Shown one piece after another: positions 791-63,956 of a stretch of DNA of 64,000 nucleotides (position 1 is the first letter of the stretch; each line of letters opens with the position of its first letter). The position numbers and the translations under genes were made by a program. The notes under the pieces are model-generated. The model ran no database searches and was not told the DNA's origin. It saw only the letters and a program-made list of their open reading frames with translations. Source of the DNA: a virus; the IMG/VR virus record IMGVR_UViG_3300046459_000427, positions 40,854 through 104,853 of that record; one strand, written 5' to 3'.

Positions 791-1177
791 TCAGATCTTG
801 AGAGAAGCGCGGAGTTGTGCCTCCTGCGCCTGCCGCTGCATCGCCTGGCCGACCGCCATCATCTGCTGCTGGGTACGCTGGGCCGTCTCCATGACGGTCA
901 GGTCCTTCTGCACCACGGCGACGGCGCCGAAGATGTCGTCCGGGGTGGCTCCTCGCCGGGGGACGAACTTCTGGGTCAGGTCGCTGGTGGCGACGACTGC
1001 GCCGTCCAGGCCGACGGCGACGAGGAACGCGGTGGTGACCGGGGTGCCGATCTCGTCCTCGGCGGGCGGGTTCTCCTCCGCCATCTTGGCCAGGGCTGCC
1101 CGCTGCTCGTCGGTGAGATCGGTATGAAGCGCGTCGTCGTTCTTCGTGGGGGTCTGGCCGAGGATCGGGATGCTCAT
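791..1177 (-). CDS. Hypothetical protein
   Basis: Start trimmed to MSIPILGQ (ATG 1177, GGAG upstream); GC3-biased codons. Confidence 0.7.
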   Translation of the reverse strand: MSIPILGQTPTKNDDALHTDLTDEQRAALAKMAEENPPAEDEIGTPVTTAFLVAVGLDGAVVATSDLTQKFVPRRGATPDDIFGAVAVVQKDLTVMETAQRTQQQMMAVGQAMQRQAQEAQLRASLKI

Positions 1178-1205
1178 GAGTGCTCCAGGTGTGTGTCGGG
1201 TGGGG

Positions 1206-1691
1206 TTACTTGTAGAGTCCGGCCTTTTCGCGGGCGCTCTGTACGACCAGCGAGTGGACCGGGCAGAACTCGCAGAGGTAGCGGTCCTGGGCGGACTTGT
1301 ACCTCGGCAGGCCTGCCGCCTTGCGCTCGGCTGCGGTGTCCGGCGTGAGGCGCTTGGAGCCGGTCTTGTAGTCCGAGCAGCCGGGGTTGCGTGCGTGGGC
1401 CTTCCAGCAGGCGTGTGCGTCTTCCTGGAAGGTGTTCTTCGCCTCGTAGAAGGAGGTGTCGAAGCCGGTGTGGCCGGTCTTGTCGCGGATCTGGGAGATG
1501 ATCGCGTCGCGGGTGCTGGGGCTGTCCCAGTGCTTCTTCTCCACACGCAGCATCGGGTGCGCGATGTGGTTGGGGTGCTTCTGTACGAGCGCTTCCAGGA
1601 GGAAGTCGGCGCGGGGGTCGCCCTCGTAGTCGGGCAGTTCCTCCATAGACCCGCAGGTCTTGCAGAGAAGAAGCCGTATGTGCTCGGCCAT
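1206..1691 (-). CDS. Hypothetical Zn-binding protein
   Basis: CKTC, C..H...C, CEFC motifs; AAGGGA RBS. Confidence 0.75.
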   Translation of the reverse strand: MAEHIRLLLCKTCGSMEELPDYEGDPRADFLLEALVQKHPNHIAHPMLRVEKKHWDSPSTRDAIISQIRDKTGHTGFDTSFYEAKNTFQEDAHACWKAHARNPGCSDYKTGSKRLTPDTAAERKAAGLPRYKSAQDRYLCEFCPVHSLVVQSAREKAGLYK

Positions 1692-1705
1692 GGTGTCCCT
1701 TCGAA

Positions 1706-2311
1706 TCAGTACCAGTTAGTGGCCTGGGAGTGTGCCCAGGCGGTGCAGGGTGTCCCGTATACCGCCTTGATGTATCCGAGTCCCCATCGTATCTGGGTTA
1801 TTGCATTTGTTTGCCAATCCGAACCGGCGGAAGCCATCTTCGAACCGGGCAATGCCTGCGGGATTCCGTAGGCGCCGGAGGAGGGGTTTGTGGCGGTGAC
1901 TCGCCAGTTCGACTCCTTCTCCCAGAGCAGTTCCAGGCAGGAGAACTGTGCGGGGCCGACCTGTGCGAGGGCGTAGGCCTTCGGGGAGGTCGTGGCGACG
2001 ACGGCGCGTGTCGGGGTTGGTGACGCCCGGGGGGTCTTTGTGGGTTTTGGCTGGTGGGTCGGGGTGCTGCTCGGCTTCGGCTTGACGGTCTTGGTGACCT
2101 TGGGCGTAGGCGCCGGGGTGGTTGGGGGCGCCAGCTTGGGGCGGGTCATGGACCGGTTGGCGGTGTCCGGAGCTGATCGGGTGACGGCGGGTGCGGCGGC
2201 GATGCCGTTGTAGTCGACGGGCTGGTCCTGGCCGGTGATGGAGATGGCCGAGACGGCAGAAGCCGTAACAAGGATGGCGGACGCTGCTGCTGCGGCTACG
2301 CGGTAGCGCAT
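1706..2311 (-). CDS. Secreted lytic transglycosylase (SLT/lysozyme-like) with Pro/Thr linker
   Basis: N-terminal signal peptide; C-terminal LWEKESNW...SSGAYGIPQALPGSKM...QIRWGLGYI...YG typical of actinobacterial transglycosylases. Confidence 0.85.
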   Translation of the reverse strand: MRYRVAAAAASAILVTASAVSAISITGQDQPVDYNGIAAAPAVTRSAPDTANRSMTRPKLAPPTTPAPTPKVTKTVKPKPSSTPTHQPKPTKTPRASPTPTRAVVATTSPKAYALAQVGPAQFSCLELLWEKESNWRVTATNPSSGAYGIPQALPGSKMASAGSDWQTNAITQIRWGLGYIKAVYGTPCTAWAHSQATNWY

Positions 2312-2404
2312 GCGGTTGCCTCACGTTCGGGGACGTTCTTGCTCCTAGAACGTAACATCCCCACTACGGCATTGGAAGCCGTAATGAGGATGACGTTATT
2401 CAGA

Positions 2405-3295
2405 TCACGCCTTGACGGTGAACAGGCCGCTGGCCGTGGCCAGCTTCGTCAGGGACTGAAGGCCCGGGGCGCCCTTGGCGTCGTTGCCCTGGTAGCCCTT
2501 CTTCCGGCGGAAGAGGTCGTAGGCGTCCTGCGTCTTGGTGCCCCAGGAGCCGTCCACCCACCTCGCGTCCAGGTAGCCCAGCGCCGACAGCGCCTTCTCG
2601 ACGAGCAGGACATCGGCCTTGTGGGTCGTGTGGCCCGTGGCCGCCGGGAGATCGGCCTTGCGGGCCGCCACGACGTTGGAGACGTCCACGACCGGCTTGG
2701 CCGCAGGCTTCGGAGCGGGCTTGGCCGCAGGCTTCGGAGCGGGCTTCGGGGCGGCCGGAGTGGCCGAGGTATGAAGCGAAGGGTTCTGCGACTTCCACGC
2801 CGGGTCGGCCGACTCGATACCGCCCGGGTATTCCGGGTAGCCGTAGCCGTAGACGTGCGCATCGGTCCGGATATGGGTCTTCGAATAGACCCCGTCGCCT
2901 TCGGCTGAACCATTCACGTTCGTATTGCCTTCGACGGAATACACGTGAGTCGCGTCGAATCCGATGACGACCCCGGTGTGCTCACCGCCGCCCGGACCGT
3001 AGAAGACCTGCGCACCGATGGCGGGGTACTCGGACCAGCGCTTGCGGGCCTTGTACCAGGAAACGCCGGTAGCGCACGAGGCGGTAACCGGGTAGGAGCC
3101 CTTCGGCAGGCCCGCCGTCTGGAAAGCCCACGCCGCGAATACGGCGCACCAGGCACCCTCGACGTTGTCGACCCATTCCAGGCCGGGGACCTTGTCGGCG
3201 TACTTCTCGTGGTTGTTCCAGTGGCCGTTGGAATAGCCCTCGTGGTACCCCACCTCGGCCTTTACGACCTTGCTGAGAGTGTCGGTCAAAGACAT
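2405..3295 (-). CDS. Endolysin: CHAP peptidase plus C-terminal peptidoglycan-binding domain
   Basis: WCAVFAAW...EHTGVV...VEGN CHAP motifs; PAPK linker; VDGSWGTKTQDAY PG-binding motif. Confidence 0.85.
   Translation of the reverse strand: MSLTDTLSKVVKAEVGYHEGYSNGHWNNHEKYADKVPGLEWVDNVEGAWCAVFAAWAFQTAGLPKGSYPVTASCATGVSWYKARKRWSEYPAIGAQVFYGPGGGEHTGVVIGFDATHVYSVEGNTNVNGSAEGDGVYSKTHIRTDAHVYGYGYPEYPGGIESADPAWKSQNPSLHTSATPAAPKPAPKPAAKPAPKPAAKPVVDVSNVVAARKADLPAATGHTTHKADVLLVEKALSALGYLDARWVDGSWGTKTQDAYDLFRRKKGYQGNDAKGAPGLQSLTKLATASGLFTVKA
2694..2746. repeat. 24-bp tandem repeat (about 2.2 copies) encoding the endolysin PAPKPAAK linker
   Basis: GGCTTGGCCGCAGGCTTCGGAGCG repeated at 2694 and 2718. Confidence 0.85.
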
Positions 3296-3297
3296 GT

Positions 3298-4001: not shown

Positions 4002-5257
4002 CAGAACAACTTCTGCTGGCCCGGGTGGACCTCGGTATGAAGCCCGTTCTTGCCGTAGGTGTTCAGCGAGGAGTCGTGGTTGTCACCACGGCGCCGCTTC
4101 TCCTCCGACCACTGCGCGGACTGCATGTTGGTCAGGGAGTTCAGTCCGCGCTCCTGCATGACGTTGCGGGCGACGTGGTCGTGGAAGGCGTGGATGCCCT
4201 TGATACCCATGTACGCCTGCTGGCTGCCGGAGCCCTTCTTGTCCTCCAGGTGCGGCGCGAAGGCACCACCACCGGAGTGCGTGTCCGACACCCAGAACTG
4301 TGAGGAGCCGTGCGGGTCCACCCACGAGTTGTGATAGGCGCCGACCTTCTCACCGGCCGTCGGCTTCCATGCGTTCGACAACTGCTTGCCGTTGAGGACC
4401 TGGTGCGTCACGTCGATCGCCAGGGCGTGGTTACGGGGGTACCCGTTGGCCGGGTAGGCGCGGGTGTCGCCTTCCTTCTTCACCAGTTGCGTGAACTGCT
4501 TGCCCGACTTCGAGGTGACGGTCTTCTCCACCTTGTCCTCGCGCGGGACGTAGTAGTCCTTGTGGTAGTGGTAGTCCTCGCCGGTCTTGCCGGATTTGGC
4601 CCACTGGATCGCGTGGCTGGCCGCCTGGTCGTTGGGGTAGACCGCCTTGCCCGTCTCCTTGTCCGGCCGCACGAACACGTTCTGCGGGGACGTGATGGCG
4701 TTCGCAGCGGCCTGAACGCCGAAGGGGACACCGTTCTCCTTGGCCGAGGTCTTCAGACGCGCACGCGGGCTCAGGGAACCGTCCCGGGTGTGGTCGTCGG
4801 CCGGGCTGTAGAACGAGTCGTGGTGCCCGCCCTCGTGCGCGTACGCACGGTCGACCTGAGAGGCCAGGGCGCGGTGAGCGGAGTCGGGGGTAACACCGAA
4901 CTTGGCGGCCGAGCGCAGCACGCGGGACTGCTCGGCAGGTGTGTGGTCCTCCCACCGACGGTTGACCGGCATCATGTCCCTGACCGGGTTCATGGTGTGC
5001 TGGCCGTGCCAGACATCAGACCCCTTCGGGCCCTCCAACTCCATCTGCCCGTGCAGGTTCGGAGCCTTGTCGGTGTTGCCCATCAGCCGGTACGACTGGC
5101 GGGGACTGGCTCCGGCTCCGGGCTTGTCCTGGATGGTCGTAAAGCGCTGCGGGTTGGCGGCCTCGTAGGACTGCCGCTTGGCCGAGGCGTCCTTGACGGT
5201 CTTGTTGTAGGCGCGGGTATCCGCAGCCTTCTGTGCTGGGGTCTTGCTCGCAGCCAT
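4001..5257 (-). CDS. Hypothetical phage protein (418 aa)
   Basis: GGAGG RBS, phage-like codon bias; C-terminal VSDTH...MQSAQW pattern; function unknown. Confidence 0.8.
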   Translation of the reverse strand: MAASKTPAQKAADTRAYNKTVKDASAKRQSYEAANPQRFTTIQDKPGAGASPRQSYRLMGNTDKAPNLHGQMELEGPKGSDVWHGQHTMNPVRDMMPVNRRWEDHTPAEQSRVLRSAAKFGVTPDSAHRALASQVDRAYAHEGGHHDSFYSPADDHTRDGSLSPRARLKTSAKENGVPFGVQAAANAITSPQNVFVRPDKETGKAVYPNDQAASHAIQWAKSGKTGEDYHYHKDYYVPREDKVEKTVTSKSGKQFTQLVKKEGDTRAYPANGYPRNHALAIDVTHQVLNGKQLSNAWKPTAGEKVGAYHNSWVDPHGSSQFWVSDTHSGGGAFAPHLEDKKGSGSQQAYMGIKGIHAFHDHVARNVMQERGLNSLTNMQSAQWSEEKRRRGDNHDSSLNTYGKNGLHTEVHPGQQKLF

Positions 5258-7352: not shown

Positions 7353-7957
7353 GCGAAGGCCAGGATCTCCCTGACCTTGGTATGAAGGTCTTCGAGGGTG
7401 CCGTCGTTGACCAGGCGGACGTCGAACCACTTGTCCGGGAGGGGCTTCTCCGACTTGTGGTCGTTGACGGCGCCGATGCCGGGCCGGTCGATCTTGATGA
7501 GCAGGCCGAGGCGGGAGTCGATGGCGTGGTGCTCGTTCTCGAACCGCAGGTCGGTGAAGACGTACTTCTTGTTCTCGTCGAGGTTCTTGAAGGCGGCCTT
7601 GACCCACACGTTCTGGTCGATCATCTCGCGGCCGACCTCGGTGCCCAGGACCTGGAGCATCCGGCGGATCTCCTCGTACTGGCGCTTGGCGTCATCCCAG
7701 CCGAGGTTGTCCACGAGGTCCTGGACGCGGAGGTGGTAGCCGTACTCGTCGGTGATGATGATCGGGTTGAGGACGTACAGGGCCTCGCGGAGGTTGTCGG
7801 CGAAGGCGACGGCGGTGTAGCCGTAGTCGGCGAGGATCTTGGCGACGGTGTCCTTGCCTGCGCTCGGGTAGCCGTGGAGGCCGACGAACTGCGGGAGCCA
7901 GGACTCGATGATGTCGTGGCCGTCGGTGGCGGTGGCGGTGGCGGTGGCGGTGGTCAC
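7349..7957 (-). CDS. Deoxynucleoside monophosphate kinase
   Basis: GLHGYPSAGKDTVA P-loop; FADNLRE; RMLQVLGTEVGR; TDLRFENE. Confidence 0.9.
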   Translation of the reverse strand: MTTATATATATDGHDIIESWLPQFVGLHGYPSAGKDTVAKILADYGYTAVAFADNLREALYVLNPIIITDEYGYHLRVQDLVDNLGWDDAKRQYEEIRRMLQVLGTEVGREMIDQNVWVKAAFKNLDENKKYVFTDLRFENEHHAIDSRLGLLIKIDRPGIGAVNDHKSEKPLPDKWFDVRLVNDGTLEDLHTKVREILAFA

Positions 7958-8875: not shown

Positions 8876-9552
8876 TTGGCGGACACCTTGCTCTTCGGCG
8901 CCTCGTCGTTCTTGATCGTGGCCTTGAAGAAGGCCCCGGCCGCGTCGTGCCAGACGACGACACCTTCGGGGTCCTGGAAGCCTGGGGCGATGAAGGAGCC
9001 GTCCGACTCCAAGGTATGAAGCGCGATGTTGACGGCGTAGTTCAGGTCGTTGCCGTTGGCGACCAGGATGACCGGGACGACGGTGACCTCCGGCGGGGCC
9101 GGTACGGCCTTGGGGAAGGTCGTCAGGTACTGGTCGGTGACCTCGGGGTCGCGGATGTCGTACCAGCGGTTGACGTTGAAGAGCGCGAATCGCTTCTCGT
9201 CGAGGCCGTAGCCGGACTGGATGCCCTTGCCGAACCACTCGCCGTAGTGGCGGCCGGGGCCGAGCGCGGTCAGCGCCACGGAGTTGTCGAAGACCCAGTT
9301 GGCGAAGCCGAAGTTGTCGTTGTTCCGGTCCAGCCAGCGGTTGCGGCTGCCTGCTCGGACGATGAAGGGTTCGTTGTCGCGGTAGGCGAGGACTCCCTGG
9401 GAGACGTCCTGGGTGTCGGCGTCGAAGTCCGCGAGCGGGGTGATCTCGATCAGGCCGTTCGTGCCGTCGACCTTCTCGGTAAGCACGACCTTGCGGTGCA
9501 GGCGGGGGATGGGGCGGAACTTCGGGTAATCGCTGGCCTTGAGGATGGTCAT
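8872..9552 (-). CDS. RNA ligase (Rnl2-like adenylation domain)
   Basis: TEKVDGTNG (motif I KxDG), YGEWFG, FALFNV, PEGVVV, FFK; start ATG 9552. Confidence 0.8.
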   Translation of the reverse strand: MTILKASDYPKFRPIPRLHRKVVLTEKVDGTNGLIEITPLADFDADTQDVSQGVLAYRDNEPFIVRAGSRNRWLDRNNDNFGFANWVFDNSVALTALGPGRHYGEWFGKGIQSGYGLDEKRFALFNVNRWYDIRDPEVTDQYLTTFPKAVPAPPEVTVVPVILVANGNDLNYAVNIALHTLESDGSFIAPGFQDPEGVVVWHDAAGAFFKATIKNDEAPKSKVSAK

Positions 9553-9559
9553 GTGGTGG

Positions 9560-12221: not shown

Positions 12222-13405
12222 CAGGCGGCCTGGGTATGAAGCCCGTCGGCCTCTTCCGGCTTCGGCCGTCGGCTGACCTTCTTGGTGCCCGAGTTCTCGG
12301 CGGCCGTCAGGTCGTCCTCGGAGATGGAACGCTCATCCGCGTGCTGCGAGGCGGCGAGGACCTTTTCGTAGAGGAATTCCTGGAGGTCCAGGTCCTCTCG
12401 AATTGCGGCGAGGGTGTTCTCCTTGCTGTGCCAGCGAAGGACGGGCTTTCCCCTGTCGTCGTATTCGCCGTTGTCGACCTCGTAGTAAGCGCCCGCGCGC
12501 TTGATGACGTCGAAGAGGATCCCCATGATCATGATTTCCTTTGTGGTGTCGAAATCACCACGGGTGAAATTCAGATAGGGAGCGGAGCGGAAGTAGGCGT
12601 CGATCGTGGCGATCTGCTGCGGGGCCGCCGACTTGTTCTTGATGGTCTTCACCTTGATGACCTGGCCGACGTTCACCTTGCCCTTTCCGGGCCGAGGCTC
12701 CTGAATCCACTCGTCGCGTCGGACTTCCACCCTGGTGTAGAACGCATAATTCTTCGCGTTTCCGCCGGGGGTTGTGGTCGGCGTGCCGTGCGGGGAGAAC
12801 TTGCCGATGGCGTCGCGGTACTGGTTGATGACGATGCCGAGCAGCGGGCGGTCCTCGGGGTCGGTCATGCTGCGCTTCGTCGCGGCGCCGGACTTCCGGA
12901 AGAACTTGCCGGTGAGACGGGCGCCCAGCGCCATGGTCGCCTCGTCCATGTCCTTCTCGGACTCCTCGTCCGGTATGAGCGCCGGGTAGGAGTCGAGGAC
13001 GATCATGTCGACCGAGCGGGACGTCGCGAAGTCGAGCATGGTCTGGTAGGCGAATTCCATGGCCTGGGTGGGGACGACGATCACGCGGTCGTTGTCGACG
13101 CCCAGCGCTTCGGCCTGGTCGGTGTCGTAGTGCTCTGCGGCGATCCACAGGCACGTGAAGTCGGGGTCCTTCTTCTGGTTGGCGGCCAGCGTCTTGTAGA
13201 CGATGAAGGTCTTGCCGTGGGACTCACGGCCGATGACCTCGACCCACTGGTTGCCCGGCCAGCCACCGCCGAGGGCGATGTCCAGGGAGAGGGAGCCGGA
13301 GGTGAAGCGCTTGGCCACGCGCATGTCCGAGGCGAAACACACGGCACCCGGATGGGTCTTGTTGATCTTGGCGAGAAGTGCGAGGGCGTCCTTGTTCACG
13401 CTCAA
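12221..13405 (-). CDS. recA: RecA/UvsX-like recombinase
   Basis: SGSLSLDIALGGGWP, EVIGRESHGKT Walker A, IVLDS, INQYRDAIG, TPGGNAKNY, IKNK; start likely TTG 13405 or GTG 13399. Confidence 0.93.
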   Translation of the reverse strand: MSVNKDALALLAKINKTHPGAVCFASDMRVAKRFTSGSLSLDIALGGGWPGNQWVEVIGRESHGKTFIVYKTLAANQKKDPDFTCLWIAAEHYDTDQAEALGVDNDRVIVVPTQAMEFAYQTMLDFATSRSVDMIVLDSYPALIPDEESEKDMDEATMALGARLTGKFFRKSGAATKRSMTDPEDRPLLGIVINQYRDAIGKFSPHGTPTTTPGGNAKNYAFYTRVEVRRDEWIQEPRPGKGKVNVGQVIKVKTIKNKSAAPQQIATIDAYFRSAPYLNFTRGDFDTTKEIMIMGILFDVIKRAGAYYEVDNGEYDDRGKPVLRWHSKENTLAAIREDLDLQEFLYEKVLAASQHADERSISEDDLTAAENSGTKKVSRRPKPEEADGLHTQAA

Positions 13406-13434
13406 CAGGGGCCCCCGTAGGTATGAAGTCGCAT
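13402..13434 (-). CDS. Putative leader mini-ORF MRLHTYGGPC coupled to recA
   Basis: AGGAG RBS upstream of ATG 13434; TGA stop overlaps recA TTG (TTGA); contains the CTTCATACC motif. Confidence 0.5.
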   Translation of the reverse strand: MRLHTYGGPC

Positions 13435-13480
13435 GTGTGGTGTTACTCCTGATCCGATAGCGCGGAAGCGATAACGAAGA

Positions 13481-13564: not shown

Positions 13565-15526
13565 TCAGGCAGTCACGAGGTCGACGTCCTCGCAGCCACC
13601 GGCCGCCGAGCAAGCCAGCGCCTGGGAGCCCACGGTCTGGTCGTAGGTCTCGTAAAAGGCCAGGTCCGACCACTCGACGCGGTGCTCCTGGGTGATCAGA
13701 GCCTCGTACTCGGCCTCCGTGATCTCCTCGTACGGCGCCTGCACGTAGGTGTGATCGCTGTACGGAAGGAAGGAGACTCCCGAGATCTCGCCCAGGTGCT
13801 CCCAGACCCACTCGCCGACCTCGTCCCACTCGTGCTCGCGCACGCTGATGGTCACCGACGGCTTGTGCTCGCACCAGAAGCGCTGATAGGCGAGCCAGAT
13901 CTTCAGGTGCTCGATCGCGGAGACGTCTTCACGCACCAGCGCGGTGTTGCTGGCACGCTGGGCGAAGGTGAACACCCACGCCGAGGAGTTGTAGGCGTCC
14001 TCCTCGTGCGGAATCCCCCCGTCGATCATCACGAACGAGATGGGGTCCTTCTTGTCCACCCGCACGCGCCGCTTGTAGAAGCGGGCGTGCTTGGTATGAA
14101 GCCCGCTCTCGCAGTCGACCAACTGGGAGACGGTCCCGGAGGGCTTCACGCAGGTGATCGCGTCCGAGGACGGGATGCCGATGCGCCGGGCCTCCTTCTC
14201 GTTGGCGATGCGGGCCGTCAGGCGAAGGTCGGTCAGCGTGAGGGACGTGAGGCCGTCACCCTTGCTGCCGTCGGTGTTCTGGTTGCCGAAGACCCCGGTG
14301 AGGGAGACGCCCAGCAGCCGCTCCTCCTCCGCGTTCTTGCGCCACTCCTCACGCAGGTACGGGTAGTCCGTCAGCGTGCTCTGCCAGGTGCCCAGGGTGG
14401 CCGCCAGGCTCACCTTGCGCTCCAGGTCCTCGACGGTGTCCTCCGGCCGCACGACGACCTCGGACAGGTTGCAGAACGAGAACGGCCGAAGAATGATCTC
14501 CGAGCACGGGTTGGTCCCGTAGTCGGTGTCGGCCGAGCGGTGCCCGTACTTCGCAGCCTGACGCTGGGCCGCACCACGGTGGAAGATGCCACGCTCACCC
14601 GAGCCGCTGGCTACCAGGGAGCCCCACTCGGCGCGGAAGTCCTCGTGACGCATGCCGTCGTAGTAGACGGCCGAGTTGTTGGCCAGCGCACGGTAGCCGT
14701 GATCCTTCCACCACTCCCCAGCCTTCGCCTGCGCCATCTCCTGGTCGTCCAGATCGGACAGGGAGATCATCGCGGACCGCCGGACACCACCGACCACGAC
14801 GACGCTGGCTATCTTGCAGGCGATGTCGTGGACCTCGATCGGCCGGAACTTCCGACCGGCGGCCTGGTGGAACTTCTCCACGGTGAACGCGAACAGTTCG
14901 TCCAGCGGACCCGGGCCGGAGGCACGCCCACCGAAGGTACGAAGGCGGGCACCGGCAGGCCGGATCCCGGACAGGTCCCACTGGTGTACCTCGCCCTGCC
15001 ACAGGCCTTCCAGCAGGGCCCGGAACGCATAGCCCCAGCCCTCCTTGGAGTCCTCGACGACGATCACGTCGGCAGACGCCCGAAGGGTGTCCGGGACGGC
15101 AGGCAACTGGTCGGTGTACTGGCGCTCGACCGAGTAGCCGACGCCCGTGCCGTTCATGAGGATGTAGAGGAGTTCGTCCAGGGCGCGCGGGTCCTGGAGC
15201 GGCAGGTACGAACAGTTGAAGCCCGCGATGTTCGAGCGGTCCAGGGCGGCACCGGCCGTCATCACCGCGCGCATCGACGGCATGACCTCGTGGTTGAGGA
15301 CCGCCTGGCGGACGGCCGCGACGACCCCCTGCTCGGGGATGTAGTCGTGCTTGTCCTTCAACTGGCCGAGCATGAAGTCGACGTAGCGGTCGACGGTCTC
15401 GGTCCAGGTCTCGCGGCGGTTGCGCTCCTCGTCCCAGCGGGCGTACCGGGACTTGGCGATGAAGGAGCGGTAGGGGTCGGCGATGTCGCCGGTCGGAGTG
15501 AGCAGGGAGGTCACCAGGAGGTCCAT
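13565..15526 (-). CDS. nrdJ: Class II (adenosylcobalamin-dependent) ribonucleotide reductase
   Basis: MPSMR, FNCSY, GTGVG, VVVGGVRRSA, TNPCSEI, CNLSE, TCVKPSGTVSQL, C-terminal CSAAGGC. Confidence 0.93.
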   Translation of the reverse strand: MDLLVTSLLTPTGDIADPYRSFIAKSRYARWDEERNRRETWTETVDRYVDFMLGQLKDKHDYIPEQGVVAAVRQAVLNHEVMPSMRAVMTAGAALDRSNIAGFNCSYLPLQDPRALDELLYILMNGTGVGYSVERQYTDQLPAVPDTLRASADVIVVEDSKEGWGYAFRALLEGLWQGEVHQWDLSGIRPAGARLRTFGGRASGPGPLDELFAFTVEKFHQAAGRKFRPIEVHDIACKIASVVVVGGVRRSAMISLSDLDDQEMAQAKAGEWWKDHGYRALANNSAVYYDGMRHEDFRAEWGSLVASGSGERGIFHRGAAQRQAAKYGHRSADTDYGTNPCSEIILRPFSFCNLSEVVVRPEDTVEDLERKVSLAATLGTWQSTLTDYPYLREEWRKNAEEERLLGVSLTGVFGNQNTDGSKGDGLTSLTLTDLRLTARIANEKEARRIGIPSSDAITCVKPSGTVSQLVDCESGLHTKHARFYKRRVRVDKKDPISFVMIDGGIPHEEDAYNSSAWVFTFAQRASNTALVREDVSAIEHLKIWLAYQRFWCEHKPSVTISVREHEWDEVGEWVWEHLGEISGVSFLPYSDHTYVQAPYEEITEAEYEALITQEHRVEWSDLAFYETYDQTVGSQALACSAAGGCEDVDLVTA

Positions 15527-16456: not shown

Positions 16457-18435
16457 TACTTTGCCTCCGACCAGCGGTCCACGATCTTCACGTCGGAAGA
16501 CAGCGGAACCTTGAGCAGTTTCTGAATGTCGTCGCCGAGCATGGCTTCCTTCACCAGAGCGGCGGCTTCCTCGGCGCGGTCCTCCGGAGCGAGCACCACG
16601 AGTTCGTCGTGCACGGAGAGGATCAGCCGGATCTCGTCCGGCAGGATGTTGTTCAGCCGGATCATCGCCAACTTGATCAGGTCGGCAGCCGAGCCCTGGA
16701 TGAGGCTGTTGACTGCCTGGCGCTCGGCACCCATGCGCAGGCCGTTGTTCTGCGACAGGATGAGCGGCAGGCGCCGCTTGCGGCCGAGCAGCGTGCGGAT
16801 GTACGGGGGTCGGCGCGACCGGCAGACCCGGACGACTTCTTCCTTGAAGCGGTAGATCTCGGGGAACAACTTCTGGTGCATCTCCATGAAGCGCTTGGCT
16901 TCCTTGACGGAGATCTTCGCCATCGATGCGACCTTGTCCGGGCCTGCACCGTAGACGACTGCGAAGTTGATTCCCTTGGCGACCTGGCGGAAGTCGATGC
17001 ACTCCCGGTCGCCCGCCTTTACCCGCCGGATGAATTCCTGCGGGTCCACTCCCATAAGAGCGGCAGCGGTGGCCGAGTGAGGGTCGACGCCGTTGTGGAA
17101 GCCCTTGTACAGATCGCCTCGGCCGATGAAGTGCGCGAGCACGACCAGTTCGATCTGTCCGTAGTCCGCGACGACCAGTTTGTATCCGGCCGGTGCCACG
17201 AACAGTCCACGGATTCGCTTGCCGAGTTCCGTGTCCGGGCGCGGGATGTTCTGGAGGTTGGGTTCCCGGCAGGAGAATCGTCCGGTCACCGTTCCGTACT
17301 GGACGAAGTCGGCGTGGATCCGGCCGCCGAATATCCGGCAGGGCTTCTTCGGGTCATCTTCGACCCCGAGGTAGGACACCGGGTAGTCGATCAGCTTGCT
17401 GACTTCGGAGTACTCCAGCAGCTTCTTGACGACGGCGTTGTTCTCGTGCTTTTCCAGGCTGGCGGCGTCGGTGGAGTAGTCCTTCCACTCCAGCTCCTGC
17501 CCGGCCTCGCGCTTCTTCTTGCCGCCGTCGGTCGGCTTGGTGGGGCGCAGGCCCTGGCCGCCGTCCTTCTTGGGTGCGTACAGCACCTCGGCCTTCTGGG
17601 CCGGGGCGTTGAGATTGAACTGCTTGCCCGCAGCGCGGTAGATGTCCGCCTCGATGTCCACCAGGCGCTCGGACATGTCGCGGACCAGCTCGCGCATGGC
17701 CTGCTCGTCGACCGGTGCCCCGGTGATGCCCATGTCGAGCAGTACGCCGAGGACGTCCTCTTCCAGTCGCCGGACGTTGATCAGGTGCTGGTCGTCGATC
17801 CGCTTCTGGAACTTCTTCCAGAGCAGGTAGGTGTACTTCGCGTCCATGTAGGCGTAGTGGCCCACCTTGGAGAAGGGGTGTGCCTCGACGCACTTGCCGA
17901 CGTTCTCAGTGTCGTAGTCGACCTTGTAGTAGCGCTTGACGAGTTCCTTGAGGCCCTTCTGTTTCATGTTCTCGTCGAGGAGCCACTGAAGGACGATGGT
18001 GTCCGAGTACTTCGGGGGTGCGATCTCGCCCCAGTACTTCGCCGTGGAGATGAGGTCGAAGGTCGCGTTGTGCGCGATCTTGATCTTGTCCTCGGCGAAG
18101 AACAGCGGCTTGAGGATGGAGAACACCTCGGAGGGGAGCATCTGCTCCGGCGGGGCGTCGTAGACGGCCGGGATGTTGTCGAACTTCCCGGTGATCTTGT
18201 TCTTCTTCTTCGTGGCCTTGCTCAGCAGGACGTCGCCGTTGGGGTGGCCGAACGGAATGGCGTAGGCCTCACCGTCGGTGGCCAGGCTCATCCAGTTGGC
18301 GACGTTCTGTGTCGGGACTCCTCGGTTGGCGCCGAAGGTCTCGATGTCGAAAGCGAAGGCCGGGCGCTCCATGAAGCGCTCGACCAAAGTATGAAGTCGG
18401 TCGGGGGTGAGGATGACGCTGTTCCGGATGGTCAC
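16456..18435 (-). CDS. polA: Family A DNA polymerase (3'-5' exonuclease + polymerase)
   Basis: FDIET, AHNATFD, YAYMDA exonuclease motifs; TGRFS, NLQNIP, ADYGQIEL, RQVAKGINFAVVYG, VHDEL. Confidence 0.95.
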   Translation of the reverse strand: MTIRNSVILTPDRLHTLVERFMERPAFAFDIETFGANRGVPTQNVANWMSLATDGEAYAIPFGHPNGDVLLSKATKKKNKITGKFDNIPAVYDAPPEQMLPSEVFSILKPLFFAEDKIKIAHNATFDLISTAKYWGEIAPPKYSDTIVLQWLLDENMKQKGLKELVKRYYKVDYDTENVGKCVEAHPFSKVGHYAYMDAKYTYLLWKKFQKRIDDQHLINVRRLEEDVLGVLLDMGITGAPVDEQAMRELVRDMSERLVDIEADIYRAAGKQFNLNAPAQKAEVLYAPKKDGGQGLRPTKPTDGGKKKREAGQELEWKDYSTDAASLEKHENNAVVKKLLEYSEVSKLIDYPVSYLGVEDDPKKPCRIFGGRIHADFVQYGTVTGRFSCREPNLQNIPRPDTELGKRIRGLFVAPAGYKLVVADYGQIELVVLAHFIGRGDLYKGFHNGVDPHSATAAALMGVDPQEFIRRVKAGDRECIDFRQVAKGINFAVVYGAGPDKVASMAKISVKEAKRFMEMHQKLFPEIYRFKEEVVRVCRSRRPPYIRTLLGRKRRLPLILSQNNGLRMGAERQAVNSLIQGSAADLIKLAMIRLNNILPDEIRLILSVHDELVVLAPEDRAEEAAALVKEAMLGDDIQKLLKVPLSSDVKIVDRWSEAK

Positions 18436-28290: not shown

Positions 28291-28334
28291 TCGGCGGCTC
28301 CGAGCAAGCGATAAGTATGAAGCGATATCCCCAT
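28287..28334 (-). CDS. Putative leader mini-ORF MGISLHTYRLLGAAE coupled to the initiator
   Basis: ATG 28334; TGA overlaps initiator GTG (GTGA); contains the CTTCATACT motif. Confidence 0.45.
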   Translation of the reverse strand: MGISLHTYRLLGAAE

Positions 28335-45700: not shown

Positions 45701-46535
45701 TGATGAAGAGGGGGACCTCCTTTCCGCACGTATCGTGCGTGAACTTGACATCATTGTACTGAGGGCCCGGCTGCTTTTCCTCAATGGCATCGAGGATGCG
45801 CTTTCGGTCCACGATGCCCAGGGAACGCGCGAAGTCCGGGTTTCCACTGACGGCGTTTTCGCTACCATCGGCCTCGACCACGGAAATGAGGCAGCGGGAA
45901 ATCAGGAGCGTGTTCTGCTCGGATTCCGTGGTGCGCTCGACGATGGCGAGGATTGCGTCCTGGTCGGCGCCGATGGGAAGTCGGGCGTATGCCTTGCGGC
46001 CCTTTCGGAGTTCGACTTCGAAGACGCGGTCGGACGGGTTTGCCAGTCGGCGGACGGGGATCTCGTCGAGGGTGACGGACAGGCGGAACTCATCACCGCA
46101 GTGCGGGCAGGAGTAGCGGTCCCAGACGATCTCCTCGCCGTAGGTCGCGCGCCGGATCTCCAGCAGCAGCGTGTCGCGGTCGCCGAGCAGGAGGTTGCTG
46201 AGCAGCGCGGGGCTGGACTTCTGGTCGCCCACGGAGACGGTGCCGCTGTCGAGCAGGGTGGAGATGAACTTGCCGATGCCGCCGTTGCGGGCCTTGGTGA
46301 TGGCCTCTTCATCGGCGCCGGTCAGTTCCCGGACCTCGGCGTCGTAGCGGGCATTGGTGAAGTCGTTGTCCGAAACGAAACCGCCCGGCAGGCGGAACTG
46401 GCCACCTGCCGGGACGGCTATCTCGGGCTTGGCGACCTCGGCCCCCTGGGAAAGCAATGCCGCGATGGCAGCATTTGCCTGACCAGGGTTGGAGAGAGGG
46501 CTGGAGAACCCCTCGGTATGAAGGTCGTTTGCCAC
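45672..46535 (-). CDS. Tail assembly chaperone / T4 gp26-like hub assembly protein
   Basis: EVRELTGADEE, LLLGDRDTLLLEIRRATYG, CPHC; between tube and TMP. Confidence 0.75.
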   Translation of the reverse strand: MANDLHTEGFSSPLSNPGQANAAIAALLSQGAEVAKPEIAVPAGGQFRLPGGFVSDNDFTNARYDAEVRELTGADEEAITKARNGGIGKFISTLLDSGTVSVGDQKSSPALLSNLLLGDRDTLLLEIRRATYGEEIVWDRYSCPHCGDEFRLSVTLDEIPVRRLANPSDRVFEVELRKGRKAYARLPIGADQDAILAIVERTTESEQNTLLISRCLISVVEADGSENAVSGNPDFARSLGIVDRKRILDAIEEKQPGPQYNDVKFTHDTCGKEVPLFISAGDLFQGL

Positions 46536-49973: not shown

Positions 49974-50789
49974 TCAGTACCCCCAGGATCCGAAGACGCT
50001 GGAGGGGATCCCGGACTCGTCGTCGTTCTGGTGGCCGGGTCCGATGGGCGGCAGGATCCGCTGCGGCAGGGTGTGCTCGTCGTACTCACGCTCACGGAAC
50101 AGCGGCACGAGACGGCCGGTCGTACGAGAGACGCGACGCAGGTTGGTGACCTCGATCGAGTACAGGCCGACGCCCAACTTCTCGCAGAGGGTCTTGTACC
50201 GCTCGGTGAGCATGCCGATCTGTGTCTGGATCTGGGCGAAGCGCTGGCCCCGGTCGACAGAGGTGCCGTCCGAGGTCTGGACGTTGATGTCGGTGGCCGC
50301 ATCGGTGGACAGCGCCCACATGGCCTCGGTGCACGCGAGGAGAACCACGAGGGCGTCCTCCTCGGCCGGGAGGTTGTCGACGCTCACAGGCACCTGGTCG
50401 TACTGGAGGAAGCCGTTGGCGTCCTTGTAGCGGGTGGAGACGGTACGGCCCCGGGTGTGCTGGGCCACAGCGTCGTCCAGGTAGATGTCCAGCTCGTCGT
50501 CGGAGAACAGCCCGTACGAGGATCCCGACACCAGCAGCAGTGCGTCGAGCGCGAGAGGCTGGGTCAGGTCGAGGATGCCGCTCAGGTCGTCGATGACGTA
50601 GTCGGTGGGGGTGCTCAGCGTGGTCTGCTGGCCCCCCGAGATATGAAGTACTTCGAGGCCGGTCACGTTGTTCGCGCTCAGTTCGTACTGTGCGACGTCC
50701 CCTGTGCCACGGATGGTGTCGCGGAACGGCTGGAGCCGGTCGCCCAGCTCGCTGCGTACCCGCGTGCGCAGTTCTTGGAGAGTTGCCAT
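49974..50789 (-). CDS. Head-to-tail adaptor-like protein
   Basis: LRTRVRSELGD...FSDDELDIYL; synteny. Confidence 0.65.
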   Translation of the reverse strand: MATLQELRTRVRSELGDRLQPFRDTIRGTGDVAQYELSANNVTGLEVLHISGGQQTTLSTPTDYVIDDLSGILDLTQPLALDALLLVSGSSYGLFSDDELDIYLDDAVAQHTRGRTVSTRYKDANGFLQYDQVPVSVDNLPAEEDALVVLLACTEAMWALSTDAATDINVQTSDGTSVDRGQRFAQIQTQIGMLTERYKTLCEKLGVGLYSIEVTNLRRVSRTTGRLVPLFREREYDEHTLPQRILPPIGPGHQNDDESGIPSSVFGSWGY

Positions 50790-53109: not shown

Positions 53110-53976
53110 TTACGAGTACAGTCCACGCTGGTTCTGGGCTGCCTGACCGACGCCCAACTGGCCCCGAATCTTGGCGTACTCCGACATCGGCATGTTCTGA
53201 AGGTCAGAAAGGGAGTACGACTTGTGCCCCGGATCAGTGTCCATAGGTCCGGTGGTGGAATAGCCGGTGGGGCTCACACCACGCATGGAGGCTCGCTGCT
53301 GAATAGCGGCCTGCTGGACCGACTCCAGGATAGCCTGGGTCTTCGCCTTGACTGTATTGAGCGAGTTCTCGACTTCCTCCGGCGTATTACCGCCGACGAA
53401 ATCGAGGAGTTCCGGAGCGATATTCTCGCTCTCCTCGCCGACACGTCGCTGGATGTACGTCTGGAGGTTGTTGAACTCCTGCTCCTTCTGGAACAGAAGA
53501 CGCTCCTGCTCGCGCTCCGTCTCGAACTGCTGGAGACGGGAGTTCCACTCCTGCTCCTTGACCGCGAGGAGTTCCTTGGCCGACAGGTCTTCCTCGGCCT
53601 TGGCCTTGGCGACCTCCTGGGCCTGGCGCTGACGCTCGGCCTCCTGAGCCTGCGCGGCCTCACGGGCCTTGCGCTGCTCTTCGATCTCGGCGAGGAACGT
53701 CTTGTTCTGCTCCTCCACGTTCTGGAGGCGCTTGTACAACTTGTCCTTCTCCTCCTGCCGCGCCTTCTGGATGTCCTCGGCAGTGAAGCGAGGCTCGGCG
53801 GGCGGGGTCGCAGGCGGCTCGACGACAGCGGCCGGGACGACGATGACGGGGTCGCCACCCTCACCGGGCTGCGGAGCACCACCTGCGATGGAGTAGATCG
53901 GGCGGCCGTCCTTGCGGTGGCCGAGGATCTCGTGGTTACGGGCCTGCTCGGAGAGGCCGGAAGTATGAAGCGTCAT
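53110..53976 (-). CDS. Capsid scaffolding protein
   Basis: Coiled-coil Glu/Gln-rich; C-terminal MPMSEYAKIR; between portal and MCP. Confidence 0.8.
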   Translation of the reverse strand: MTLHTSGLSEQARNHEILGHRKDGRPIYSIAGGAPQPGEGGDPVIVVPAAVVEPPATPPAEPRFTAEDIQKARQEEKDKLYKRLQNVEEQNKTFLAEIEEQRKAREAAQAQEAERQRQAQEVAKAKAEEDLSAKELLAVKEQEWNSRLQQFETEREQERLLFQKEQEFNNLQTYIQRRVGEESENIAPELLDFVGGNTPEEVENSLNTVKAKTQAILESVQQAAIQQRASMRGVSPTGYSTTGPMDTDPGHKSYSLSDLQNMPMSEYAKIRGQLGVGQAAQNQRGLYS

Positions 53977-58576: not shown

Positions 58577-58837
58577 TCAGCGGTTACGGCGAATGTCCCT
58601 GCCGGAGATGATCTGCTGCGCCCGCTGTCGGCTGAAGCCGAACATCCTGCCCAGCACGTCGTAGGTGTACCGGCCCTTCGCGTAGACCGCTGCCACCAGA
58701 GCGTCACGGGCCTCCGTCGTCACCGCCGGGTAGTCCTCGTAGCACGCCGTGTCGCAGTACACCGGGGCGTCCTTCTTGGCCACACCCAGCAGTCTTCGGC
58801 AGCCCCGGCAGCGGACCTCAGCCAGCAGATCGCTCAT
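58577..58837 (-). CDS. Zn-ribbon + HTH DNA-binding protein
   Basis: CRGC...CDTAC; YTYDVLGRMFGFSRQRAQQII HTH; start ATG 58837. Confidence 0.75.
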   Translation of the reverse strand: MSDLLAEVRCRGCRRLLGVAKKDAPVYCDTACYEDYPAVTTEARDALVAAVYAKGRYTYDVLGRMFGFSRQRAQQIISGRDIRRNR

Positions 58838-60945: not shown

Positions 60946-61110
60946 ATGGACAACGCAGAGATCATCGACATCACGTCGCTTCATACCGACTCCCATGCGG
61001 AGCGCCCCAAGTCGACCCTGACCATCACCCGTCGCTCCTGGAGCACCGAGGACCGTCGGCGCCTCGCCACCCTCCTCTTCGGCCCCCGCCCGGGGGAGGA
61101 TGCCGCCTAG
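60946..61110 (+). CDS. Small protein upstream of serine recombinase (54 aa; RDF candidate)
   Basis: Own translation MDNAEIIDITSLHTDSHAERPKSTLTITRRSWSTEDRRRLATLLFGPRPGEDAA; promoter upstream; carries the motif in sense orientation. Confidence 0.6.
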   Translation: MDNAEIIDITSLHTDSHAERPKSTLTITRRSWSTEDRRRLATLLFGPRPGEDAA

Positions 61111-63254: not shown

Positions 63255-63268
63255 CCTGCGGAAACACC

Positions 63269-63308
63269 GAAGGCCCCTCTCCCGACACCAGGGACTGAGG
63301 GGCCTTTC
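63269..63308. terminator. Hairpin between convergent genes
   Basis: GAAGGCCCCTC...GAGGGGCCTTTC. Confidence 0.65.
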
Positions 63309-63569
63309 TCATGCCTCGCGCTTGCTCAGGACGTCCAGGACCCCGAGGAGGCTCTGTGCCCCCTGGTGGGCCTCCAGCAGGCTCTCGGGGGTCGACTGCT
63401 TGCGGTAGTCGTCCAGGGCCTTGGCGAGGCCGCTACCGACCGCGTCGGCCCAGTTGAGCACGTCGACCGTGGGGAGCCTGTCCAGCCGCTTGGCGGCCTT
63501 CGCGCGGACCGGGTCGATCTTCTCCTCGCCGCCACGGAGAAGTGCCCTCACATCAGTCCAAGAGCGCAT
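63309..63569 (-). CDS. Hypothetical protein
   Basis: 86 aa, GAGGAG RBS. Confidence 0.7.
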   Translation of the reverse strand: MRSWTDVRALLRGGEEKIDPVRAKAAKRLDRLPTVDVLNWADAVGSGLAKALDDYRKQSTPESLLEAHQGAQSLLGVLDVLSKREA

Positions 63570-63650
63570 AGTGCGTCGTACTCCTCGTCCATGTCGTCGG
63601 TCTTCTGGGCCACCATCCGGCGGGCCGCTGCCTTCTCTTCGTCGGTGTTC

Positions 63651-63956
63651 TCAGATGGCGAGTTCATCGAGTTCCTCCGCGTCGAAGCGGTGGGCGTGGT
63701 CGCGGATGTCGTCGGTCGAGAGGGCATTGCCATATCCCTGGAGGGCGGTGTAGAGAGCGTCGTTCTCATTCCGGTAGGTATTGCGCCATCGACCGAAGAC
63801 GATTCCCTTTCCGGCCCACACCTTGAGGATGAGGGACTTCGAGCGCCGGTATGGCGGTTCGATTTCGTCGGTCGGCGCGGTATGAAGAAGCGGCGTATGG
63901 GGGCGCAGGTTCACCGCGTGAACGAAGAAGGGCCCCACCCCATGTGTATTCGGCAT
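63651..63956 (-). CDS. Hypothetical protein
   Basis: 101 aa; carries the genome-wide motif in LHT frame. Confidence 0.65.
   Translation of the reverse strand: MPNTHGVGPFFVHAVNLRPHTPLLHTAPTDEIEPPYRRSKSLILKVWAGKGIVFGRWRNTYRNENDALYTALQGYGNALSTDDIRDHAHRFDAEELDELAI

What the first reader, a model, noticed from the sequence alone, without database searches (positions are those of the whole stretch)
1121..63887. Genome-wide, transcription-oriented 9-mer (CTTCATACC) in 25 copies: a stoperator-like or new regulatory system
Seen: 24 copies of (GG/AG/GA)TATGAAG on the + strand, all within minus-strand ORFs, and one inverted copy (60979) inside a plus-strand ORF, so orientation tracks transcription. A rough hand estimate for the AT-rich core TATGAAG at about 68% GC is under 1 copy per strand per 64 kb. 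Usually there is one copy per gene, often at gene ends or in linkers. 19 of 25 lie in the 1-30 kb replication/lysis arm and only 4 in the 28-kb virion operon. Known analogy: the asymmetric, transcription-oriented stoperators of mycobacteriophages L5 and Bxb1, where bound repressor blocks elongation. Inference: this phage uses a distributed cis-element. Candidate readers are the HTH proteins at 58577..58837 and 19561..20022, or WhiB. My count is by eye and may miss copies.
Basis: partly seen in the sequence, partly recalled or inferred. Interest (0 to 1): 0.92.

Follow-up and report, generated by a model that had tools for sequence, protein, structure and literature searches.

The report
Frame-locked 9-base word in phage genes
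A temperate Streptomyces phage writes the same nine bases (CTT-CAT-ACC, always read as Leu-His-Thr on the sense strand) into about forty of its genes, and a sister lineage has changed one base at the same sites genome-wide, which points to a co-evolving reader of a kind not yet described.

Summary
CTTCATA occurs 25 times in the window (expected 1.5) and 41 times in the 104.9-kb genome, 40 of them on the gene strand. It is by far the most over-represented k-mer. Other windows of this genome had already flagged the motif in this scan.

New findings:
- Every true copy is in reading frame 0 (CTT CAT AYY). Codon usage predicts only 26% in that frame, and the host chromosome's chance copies mostly sit in other frames.
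- A sister lineage carries CTTAATACC (Leu-Asn-Thr) at the same positions, and each genome is almost purely one type.
- Native Leu-His-Thr tripeptides were synonymously recoded to make new copies.
- Apparently intergenic copies lie in conserved leader mini-ORFs coupled to recA and the replication initiator.
- Reversed copies occur only in reversed ORFs.
- The motif is excluded from the promoter-rich early region.
- It has no -10 partner and no RNA structure, and it is not enriched in the Streptomyces host, which carries a related prophage.

Best reading (about 0.4): a three-codon word read during translation by an unidentified phage-specific factor. Main rival (about 0.25): strong initiation sites for the phage DnaG-like primase, whose zinc-binding domain is the best-sampled locus that separates the two motif types. 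A stoperator-like DNA site fails two defining features.

The parts
1121..1129 (-). CTTCATACC, codons 17-19 of a small ORF (MSIPILGQTPTKNDDA-LHT)
2768..2776 (-). CTTCATACC, frame 0, codon 174 of the 296-aa ORF 2405-3295
4034..4042 (-). CTTCATACC, frame 0, about 11 codons before the stop of the 418-aa ORF 4001-5257
7379..7387 (-). CTTCATACC near the C-terminus of the dNMP kinase (LHTKVREILAFA*). The sister lineage has CTTAATACC at the same place
9013..9021 (-). CTTCATACC, codon 282 of the RNA ligase-like ORF 8872-9864
12233..12241 (-). CTTCATACC, four codons before the RecA stop (GLHTQAA*, with TGATG overlap to the next gene). CTTAATACC in type B
13420..13428 (-). CTTCATACC in the 10-codon leader ORF MRLHTYGGPC*, whose TGA overlaps the TTG start of recA. 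In type B the same ATG is fused in frame to RecA
14093..14101 (-). CTTCATACC in the ribonucleotide reductase (codon 476). Type B has CTG CAC CAG here
18388..18396 (-). CTTCATACT, codon 14 of the family A DNA polymerase. CTTAATACC in type B and CTG GAG GAG in a 67%-identical relative
19170..19178 (-). CTTCATACC in the 391-aa ORF 18516-19691
19912..19920 (-). CTTCATACC, codon 35 of the MerR/excisionase-like protein
20794..20802 (-). CTTCATACC in the 117-aa ORF. Type B has CAG CAC ACC (Gln-His-Thr)
23336..23344 (-). CTTCATACC, codon 8 of a 65-aa ORF. In type B the counterpart is a 14-codon mini-ORF, MTRLNTCPRKGDHR*
23718..23726 (-). CTTCATACC in the primase. Type B keeps Leu-His-Thr with the common codons CTG CAC ACC, so this copy was made by synonymous recoding
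25563..25571 (-). CTTCATACT in the DnaB-like helicase. Type B has CAG CAC ACC
26296..26304 (-). CTTCATATC (Leu-His-Ile), 9-10 codons before the stop of the 81-aa ORF
28314..28322 (-). Relatives have MALPLHTYRIRL* or MSSRLNINGGVAE*
28694..28702 (-). CTTCATATC in the 435-aa ORF 28451-29758
30273..30281 (-). CTTCATATC in the 165-aa ORF 30090-30587
39772..39780 (-). CTTCATACC, codon 171 of the 1193-aa virion protein
46515..46523 (-). CTTCATACC, codons 5-7 of the 287-aa virion ORF (MANDLHT)
50640..50648 (-). CTTCATATC in the 271-aa virion ORF
53962..53970 (-). CTTCATACT, codons 3-5 of the 288-aa ORF after the portal gene (MTLHT)
60979..60987 (+). The only reversed copy, in frame at codon 16 of a 58-aa + strand ORF ahead of the serine integrase. 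Relatives hold one such copy in a small reversed ORF with a TAGTAC-like -10 just upstream
63879..63887 (-). CTTCATACC in the 101-aa ORF, inside the 127-bp terminal repeat (equals genome position 6-14)
23376..24332 (-). DnaG-like primase (CHC2 zinc ribbon plus Toprim). It is the candidate reader in the rival explanation: 31 columns have disjoint residues between the two motif types, 20 of them in residues 1-114

Best explanation
The element is a three-codon word, (G)CTT-[C/A]AT-A[CT][CT], that works only when it is transcribed and translated in frame. I propose that the translating ribosome presents it, with CUU, CAU (or AAU) and AYY filling three adjacent tRNA sites. A phage-specific factor would then recognise it and cause a programmed pause or a frame-dependent mRNA cut. 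This would tune the output of the replication/recombination genes, which lack host-type promoters, and of a few virion genes. Immediate-early genes with their own host-type promoters would be left untouched.

In frame, the word is almost absent from host genes, so such a factor could act on phage messages alone. The two versions (His type and Asn type) would be two specificity groups of one reader-site system.

Shown: strand lock, frame lock, nucleotide-level selection, the concerted one-base switch, leader-ORF embedding, and exclusion from the early region.
For: 1. Frame lock. All 41 copies in this genome are CTT CAT AYY in frame. Across relatives, 475 of 478 distinct sequence contexts are in frame 0 inside an ORF.
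2. Codon usage does not explain it. It predicts 26% in frame 0, 59% in frame +1 and 15% in frame +2. Of 20 chance copies examined in the 10.7-Mb host genome, at most 2 are in sense frame 0; 8 are antisense and 7 are in frame +2.
3. Selection acts on nucleotides, not on the peptide.
   - 35 of 75 Leu-His dipeptides use CTT-CAT, where about 1% is expected.
   - 32 of 35 Leu-His-Thr/Ile tripeptides use the motif codons.
   - Native CTG CAC ACC in the sister lineage is recoded to CTT CAT ACC here.
   - 21 of 26 Leu-His-Thr tripeptides are converted, yet the frame +2 candidates are not; the single frame +2 hit is the recA leader copy read inside an over-extended ORF call.
4. Turnover. There are at least 55 mappable positions, with many lineage-specific gains, all in frame 0.
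5. Apparently intergenic copies lie in mini-ORFs with a Shine-Dalgarno site. Their peptides vary except for the word, and their stops overlap the next start. The recA word sits in a leader ORF in type A and is fused to RecA in type B.
6. Reversed copies occur only in reversed ORFs, in frame, in at least 6 different ORF versions.
7. In every lineage the motif is missing from the region rich in GCTTGACA promoters.
8. It has no -10 partner, no conserved flank except G at -1, and no selected RNA fold.
9. One sub-lineage gained an extra tRNA-His made from a tRNA-Leu body. This suggests that decoding the added CAU codons matters.
Against: - No reader has been found. Pfam and PHROG scans of about 45 proteins gave no RNase, toxin or RNA-binding family.
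- No described system reads a 9-base in-frame word. The nearest precedents (Rae1, RelE-type nucleases) have much looser sequence needs.
- The locus that best separates the two motif types is the primase zinc-binding domain. That favours a DNA-level reader.
- About half of the copies are mid-gene, with no fixed distance to a start or a stop.
- No RNA or ribosome data exist for these phages.
Confidence: 0.4

Rival explanations
1. The word is a strong initiation site for the phage DnaG-like primase on the lagging-strand template, which is the coding strand when forks run in the direction of transcription. TT[C/A] would be the initiation trinucleotide, with the variable base as the uncopied 3' nucleotide. 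G-C upstream would be copied (primer pppAAGC...). ATACC would be a 3' flank bound by the zinc-binding domain. The C-to-A switch would have followed changes in that domain.
For: - With 45 type-A and 54 type-B sequences, most well-sampled proteins have 0-4 columns that separate the types, and many of those columns are the motif's own His/Asn.
- The primase has 31 such columns, 20 of them in residues 1-114, which cover the zinc ribbon and linker. Type A is monophyletic on a long branch.
- The zinc-binding domain sets the choice among d(CTA), d(TTA) and d(CTG) in bacterial DnaG (PMC2978363). Type B contains d(TTA).
- T7 primase uses about 26 strong sites whose 3' flank matters (PMC12839067).
- Spacing in the replication module averages 1.6 kb and is more regular than random (CV 0.65, P = 0.017).
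- Each complete genome has exactly one reversed copy, beside the divergent gene junction, where a leading-strand primer would be needed.
- The motif is not enriched in the host chromosome.
Against: - A primase has no reason to care about reading frame, yet 475 of 478 contexts are in frame 0, where 26% is expected.
- Copies outside annotated genes are in translated leader ORFs, not in free spacer DNA.
- There is a 17-kb gap over the early region and only 4 copies in 28 kb of virion genes, the same in all lineages. That does not fit a need for regular priming.
- The two beta-4 residues that set specificity in bacterial DnaG (Tyr66 and Phe67 here) do not differ between the types.
- Several poorly sampled genes are also differentiated, so the association could be linkage.
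Confidence: 0.25
2. The word is a binding site on DNA or nascent RNA for a phage regulator that acts on transcription: a stoperator-like roadblock in lysogens, or an ops/nut-like site that recruits an antiterminator for the long operons lacking promoters. The two types would be immunity or specificity groups.
For: - The site is asymmetric and present in more than 20 copies, and its orientation tracks transcription.
- Site and presumed reader co-evolve, as in Cluster A mycobacteriophages (PMC6550527, abstract only; PMC9283540).
- The phage is temperate: it has a serine integrase, and a relative is integrated in a Streptomyces genome.
- The motif is dense where host-type promoters are missing.
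Against: - The frame lock and the leader-ORF embedding are unexplained.
- No copy lies at an early promoter. Those carry a different dyad element.
- The named helix-turn-helix candidates do not co-vary with the type.
- The reversed gene ahead of the integrase, presumed to belong to the lysogeny side, carries the word too.
Confidence: 0.2
3. The function lies in the peptide Leu-His/Asn-Thr, for example as a tag for a protease or a modifying enzyme.
For: - All copies are in frame.
- Many sit at protein termini or linkers.
Against: - The rare codons are held fixed across lineages whose flanks have diverged.
- Leu-His-Thr written with common codons is left alone in type B.
- The residue changes from His to Asn genome-wide.
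Confidence: 0.03

Closest known systems
Stoperators of Cluster A mycobacteriophages (L5, Bxb1, TipsytheTRex)
   Same: Both are short asymmetric sites in more than 20 copies per genome. Orientation follows transcription, and sites co-evolve with their reader into specificity groups.
   Different: Stoperators are 13-mers at promoters and in short intergenic spaces, and they are not tied to a reading frame. Here every copy is inside an ORF in one frame, none is at an early promoter, and no L5-type repressor was identified.
DnaG/T7-type primase recognition sites
   Same: Both are strand-specific single-strand words with a YT[N] trinucleotide plus flanks. Specificity is set by a zinc-binding domain, and here that domain separates the two motif types. 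T7 uses a few dozen strong sites per genome.
   Different: Primase sites are not known to be frame-locked, to be excluded from a class of genes, or to be exact 9-mers switched in concert.
Rae1 and RelE-type ribosome-dependent mRNA cleavage
   Same: Their action depends on translation and on reading frame, and it can occur inside short leader ORFs (titles and abstracts of PMC10351889 and PMC12407103).
   Different: Those enzymes respond to stalled ribosomes or to single codons, not to a fixed 9-base word. No such nuclease gene was found in this phage.
Start-associated sequences of Cluster K mycobacteriophages
   Same: Both are a conserved short repeat found next to many genes of one phage group (from my own knowledge; PMC3203893 appeared in a search but was not read).
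   Different: By my recollection those are 13-mers that lie upstream of start codons and include the ribosome-binding site. They are not in-frame coding words.
Chi / KOPS-type polar host sequences
   Same: Both are strand-polar over-represented oligomers.
   Different: Those are features of the host chromosome. Outside the prophage, this word is at background level in the Streptomyces host (25 copies in 10.6 Mb on both strands).

Membership tests
Stoperator system (Cluster A mycobacteriophages) | Asymmetric site in more than 20 copies per genome, oriented with transcription | tested here: met
   41 copies, 40 on the gene strand. Reversed copies occur only in reversed ORFs.
Stoperator system (Cluster A mycobacteriophages) | Sites lie in short intergenic spaces | tested here: not met
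   All copies are inside ORFs in frame 0. The three that look intergenic are in leader mini-ORFs.
Stoperator system (Cluster A mycobacteriophages) | The same motif serves as the operator at the early lytic promoter | tested here: not met
The 9-mer is absent from the promoter-rich region in all lineages.
Stoperator system (Cluster A mycobacteriophages) | Monomeric repressor with a helix-turn-helix and a stoperator domain | tested here: inconclusive
   No family hit was found for the small proteins near the integrase. The two helix-turn-helix candidates do not co-vary with motif type. Not all proteins were scanned.
DnaG-type primase initiation site | Trinucleotide with a pyrimidine in the middle position, of the kind YT[N] | tested here: met
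   The word holds TTC (type A) or TTA (type B). d(TTA) is a known DnaG trinucleotide.
DnaG-type primase initiation site | Specificity follows the primase zinc-binding domain | tested here: inconclusive
   31 columns separate the types, 20 of them in residues 1-114. The beta-4 pair does not change, and linkage is not excluded.
DnaG-type primase initiation site | Lies on the lagging-strand template and primers start there | not testable with these tools
   Fork direction and primer ends are unknown. No raw reads or RNA runs were on offer.
DnaG-type primase initiation site | Placement independent of reading frame and of gene class | tested here: not met
   Frame 0 holds in 475 of 478 contexts. 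There is a 17-kb gap over the early region.
Sigma-70-type promoter | A -35-like element with a TANNNT -10 about 17 bp downstream | tested here: not met
   TANNNT is not enriched at any offset from -60 to +80 in 139 sites. The control GCTTGACA promoters show it at offset 25.
Chi/KOPS-like host polar sequence | Over-represented and polar in the host chromosome | tested here: not met
   25 copies on both strands in 10.6 Mb of host DNA, against 37 in the roughly 107-kb prophage.
Ribosome-dependent cleavage or stall site (Rae1/RelE-like) | Must be translated in a given frame | tested here: met
   The frame lock, the leader ORFs, and the recA word kept translated by two different arrangements. This is indirect evidence.
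Ribosome-dependent cleavage or stall site (Rae1/RelE-like) | A pause or a cut at the site, and a cognate factor | not testable with these tools
   No RNA holder is listed for this phage. No nuclease family was found in the roughly 45 proteins scanned.

The most novel reading that the evidence does not exclude
A phage-specific code word. Three fixed codons, almost absent in frame from host genes, would be read on the translating ribosome by a phage factor to control most delayed-early genes at once. The word and its reader would switch specificity together (CAU to AAU), giving translation-level specificity groups analogous to immunity groups.
Probability: 0.4. Interest if true: 0.95.

Novelty: categorically new. 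Interest (0 to 1): 0.86.

Why it matters
If the word is read in frame, this would be the first genome-wide cis-element in a phage whose unit is a set of codons rather than a DNA or RNA site. It would offer a new way to control many genes at the level of translation, and a ready-made signal orthogonal to Streptomyces host genes.

If it turns out to be a primase site, it would be the clearest natural case of a genome re-written to match a primase. It would also come with a natural one-base specificity switch with which to map how the zinc-binding domain reads DNA.

Either way, the pair of lineages gives a clean experiment. They have the same sites, differ by one base, occur in related samples, and have a lysogen in a sequenced Streptomyces strain.

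Tried and rejected
- The odd tRNA as reader. The 86-nt tRNA(GUG) has a Leu-like body, a long variable arm, and G-1:C73. It occurs only in the sub-lineage of this genome, G005 and the prophage. The type-A genome G006 (99% complete) lacks it.
- Antisense ORF starting at GGT ATG AAG. Type B has ATT there, and the antisense ORF at the recA leader is 9 codons long.
- Programmed frameshift. Type B has TAA in one alternative frame and TTA-ATA in the other. The slip re-pairing that works for CUU to UUC fails for UUA.
- Promoter. No -10 partner was found.
- RNA hairpin or loop presentation. The unpaired probability is 0.66, against 0.68 with codon-shuffled flanks (P = 0.76).
- A complementary guide RNA. 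The only non-coding match (GGTATGGGG, in the hairpin before the recA leader) varies G/T in both types without co-variation.
- Codon cost as the cause of the frame lock. This holds for type B (a stop and a TTA in the other frames) but not for type A, which by protein identity looks ancestral.
- A third motif type. Only C and A versions occur among related contigs.
- More distant relatives. Four 62-66%-identical genomes and Streptomyces phage BRock have no comparable word. A 67%-identical clade has 4 weaker in-frame copies, [CG]TT CAT ACN.
- Genes found only in motif-bearing genomes. Twelve candidates emerged, mostly without a family; one is a tyrosine recombinase.
- Expression data. No RNA holder is listed for this phage. 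The only holders are DNA contigs from rhizosphere and soil metagenomes, so no reads were laid.
- A megablast of 8 kb against deposited phages found nothing.
- A literature search for the 9-mer gave only unrelated primer hits.
Full report
**What is there.** The window is bases 40854-104853 of a 104,853-bp phage genome from IMG/VR with a 127-bp direct terminal repeat. Nearly all genes are on the - strand. The window holds these modules:
- A replication and recombination module: RecA, class II ribonucleotide reductase, family A DNA polymerase, SNF2 helicase, DnaG-like primase, DnaB-like helicase, a DnaC/IstB-like loader, dNMP kinase and RNA ligase.
- A virion module: capsid, portal and terminase.
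- At the right end, a tyrosine recombinase, a short + strand operon and a serine integrase.

The portal is about 60% identical to that of Streptomyces phage BRock. A relative with a 92%-identical portal is integrated in Streptomyces sp. NPDC002088 as a prophage of about 107 kb with lower G+C than its surroundings. So this is a temperate Streptomyces phage.

- CTTCATA occurs 25 times in the window, 24 on the - strand and 1 on the + strand, against 1.5 expected. The exact 9-mer occurs 17 times against 0.21 expected.
- The whole genome has 41 cores, 40 of them on the gene strand. No other k-mer comes close.
Called genes hold 34 cores. A shuffle of synonymous codons that keeps every protein gives 0.91 on average (maximum 5), and a shuffle of codon order gives 0.73.
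- The consensus is (G)CTTCATA[CT][CT]. Nothing else is conserved from -45 to +60.

**The frame lock.** Every copy is read CTT CAT AYY, that is Leu-His-Thr or Leu-His-Ile.
- Selection is on nucleotides. 35 of 75 Leu-His dipeptides use the rare pair CTT-CAT, where about 1% is expected. 32 of 35 Leu-His-Thr/Ile tripeptides use the motif codons.
- Codon usage predicts that chance copies fall 26% in this frame, 59% in frame +1 and 15% in frame +2.
- The host gives an independent control. Outside the prophage its 10.6 Mb hold 25 copies on both strands. Of 20 examined, 8 are antisense (GGT ATG AAG), 7 are in sense frame +2 and at most 2 are in sense frame 0.
- Across all related sequences, 475 of 478 distinct contexts are in frame 0 inside an ORF.
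- The few CTTCATA cores that break the AYY rule, such as CTTCATAGG in one relative, are the out-of-frame ones.

**Two types.** A search with the DNA polymerase brought in 42 related contigs.
- About half carry CTTCATACC at 0.6-0.8 per kb and only on the gene strand.
- The others, equally close in protein identity, have none. They carry CTTAATACC instead, at the same density and on the same strand.
- Alignment shows the same sites with a C-to-A change, His to Asn, at window positions 7387, 9021, 12241, 13428, 18396, 19178, 19920, 26304 and 28322.
- Type A has extra sites made from native sequence. At 23726, type B reads CTG CAC ACC (Leu-His-Thr in common codons) and type A reads CTT CAT ACC. 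Similar cases are at 20802, 25571 and 14101.
- Each genome is almost pure. Rare wrong-type copies look like recombination imports.
- No third type exists among the relatives.
- By protein identity, one type-A genome (G006) is an outgroup to this genome plus type B. A 67%-identical clade has four weaker in-frame copies of the His kind. So the His type is probably ancestral, and the frame lock cannot be inherited from the Asn type, where a stop codon and a TTA codon would enforce it.
- At least 55 mappable positions exist. Thirteen are shared by all lineages and many are lineage-specific.

**Links to expression.**
- The copies that look intergenic lie in mini-ORFs with a ribosome-binding site. 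Their peptides vary between relatives except for the word, and their stop codons overlap the next start. MRLHTYGGPC* precedes recA.
- In type B the recA word is fused in frame to RecA. In type A an 11-base difference makes it a separate leader whose TGA overlaps the TTG start. Both arrangements keep the word translated ahead of recA.
- Each genome that covers the right end has one reversed copy. It is always in a small reversed ORF, in frame, at about codon 6-17. The ORFs differ in sequence, the motif type is always the correct one, and a TAGTAC-like -10 lies just upstream.
- The motif is absent from the 17-kb early region, which carries most of the GCTTGACA promoters. The same holds in every lineage.
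- Copies favour protein ends: about half lie within 25 codons of a start or 12 codons of a stop.

**What it is not.**
- It has no -10 partner and no selected RNA fold.
- It makes no antisense ORF, because type B has ATT where type A has ATG.
- It offers no workable frameshift.
- It has no co-varying complementary RNA.
- It is not a host-wide polar sequence.

- The genome has five tRNA genes outside the window. One is an 86-nt tRNA(GUG) with a tRNA-Leu-like body, a long variable arm and the His identity pair G-1:C73. It looks like a later answer to about 40 extra CAU codons.
- An association scan over 45 type-A and 54 type-B sequences showed that recombination has erased almost all other differences. 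DNA polymerase, RecA, DnaB, capsid and portal have 0-4 separating columns, and many of those are the motif's own His/Asn.
- The clear well-sampled exception is the primase, with 31 separating columns. Twenty of them are in the first 114 residues, which hold the zinc ribbon.
- The zinc-binding domain is known to set the trinucleotide choice of DnaG, among d(CTA), d(TTA) and d(CTG) (PMC2978363). T7 primase uses about 26 strong sites with a contributing 3' flank (PMC12839067).
- The word fits such a site: TT[C/A], with the variable base in the uncopied position.

**Weighing.**
- The primase reading explains the type switch, the single reversed copy beside the divergent junction, and the roughly 1.6-kb, fairly regular spacing in the replication module.
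- It does not explain the frame lock, the translated leaders, or the exclusion from the early region. The two residues that set specificity in bacterial DnaG are also unchanged.
- A transcription-level site of the stoperator kind shares the first problems and fails two defining features.
- Only a reader that works through translation accounts for the frame lock, which is the strongest single fact.
- I therefore put the translation-coupled word first at about 0.4, the primase site at about 0.25, a transcription-level site at about 0.2, the peptide reading at 0.03, and the rest on something not yet thought of.
No RNA data could be found.

**Earlier notes.** Earlier notes of this scan on the same genome had already recorded the polar 9-mer, its frame lock and the two leader ORFs. 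I re-derived each of these here. The relatives, the two types, the host control and the association scan are new.

Noticed in passing
own genome 9573-9658 (outside the window; L053:274-359, - strand): An 86-nt tRNA with anticodon GUG. It has a tRNA-Leu-like D arm and T arm, a long variable arm, an encoded G-1 and C73, making it a class II-shaped tRNA-His. It seems derived from the neighbouring tRNA-Leu(CAA). It is present only in the closest type-A genomes and in the Streptomyces prophage.
   Followed up: partly
own genome about 10453-10586 (outside the window; L053:1154-1287, - strand): A c-di-AMP (ydaO-type) riboswitch, Rfam 68.8 bits against a gathering score of 38. It lies inside the phage tRNA operon, ahead of a 186-aa ORF that earlier notes call an NlpC/P60 hydrolase.
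   Followed up: partly
G011:C18 about 76-183 kb (L312-L318): A prophage of about 107 kb in Streptomyces sp. NPDC002088, collinear with this genome at about 80% nucleotide identity. It is type A with 37 exact 9-mers plus one CTTAATACC, and it carries the same five tRNAs. It gives a host and a lysogen for experiments.
   Followed up: partly
own genome 3-35 kb (outside the window), e.g. 35121, 33772, 31372, 30132, 27175: About ten host-type promoters, GCTTGACA-N17/18-TAGnnT, each followed by a CACCAAC-rich leader and a strong ribosome-binding site. They are confined to the early arm. The window has none except one chance match inside a gene at 23297.
   Followed up: partly
window 58577-58921 (-): A small protein next to the terminase with a four-Cys zinc ribbon and a C-terminal helix (FGFSRQRAQQI) that resembles sigma-70 region 4.2. 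It is conserved even in relatives that lack the motif. It may be a late-gene regulator or a small terminase-like DNA binder.
   Followed up: partly
window 59752-60828 (-) and 61224-63254 (+): Two recombinases lie side by side. One is a tyrosine recombinase found only in the motif-bearing clade. The other is a large serine integrase with a C-terminal DUF4096 (IS4/5 transposase-like) domain. Some close relatives lack the serine integrase.
   Followed up: no
window 18516-19691 (-): A 391-aa protein of no known family, downstream of the DNA polymerase. In all type-A genomes it has an Arg/His/Pro-rich insertion of about 38 residues (positions 82-119) that all type-B genomes lack. It is the second strongest type-linked difference.
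   Followed up: no
window 6519-6821 (-): A SpoVS homologue (Pfam PF04232, E = 2e-21) in the replication module of an actinophage.
   Followed up: no
window 13440-13520 (- strand), upstream of the recA leader: A conserved 11-bp-stem hairpin (CCGGTAGTCCC...GGGACTACCGG) followed by a T-rich run, preceded by a conserved GACTAGTTGATAC box. It is either a terminator or part of a 5' leader, and it is the same in both motif types.
   Followed up: partly
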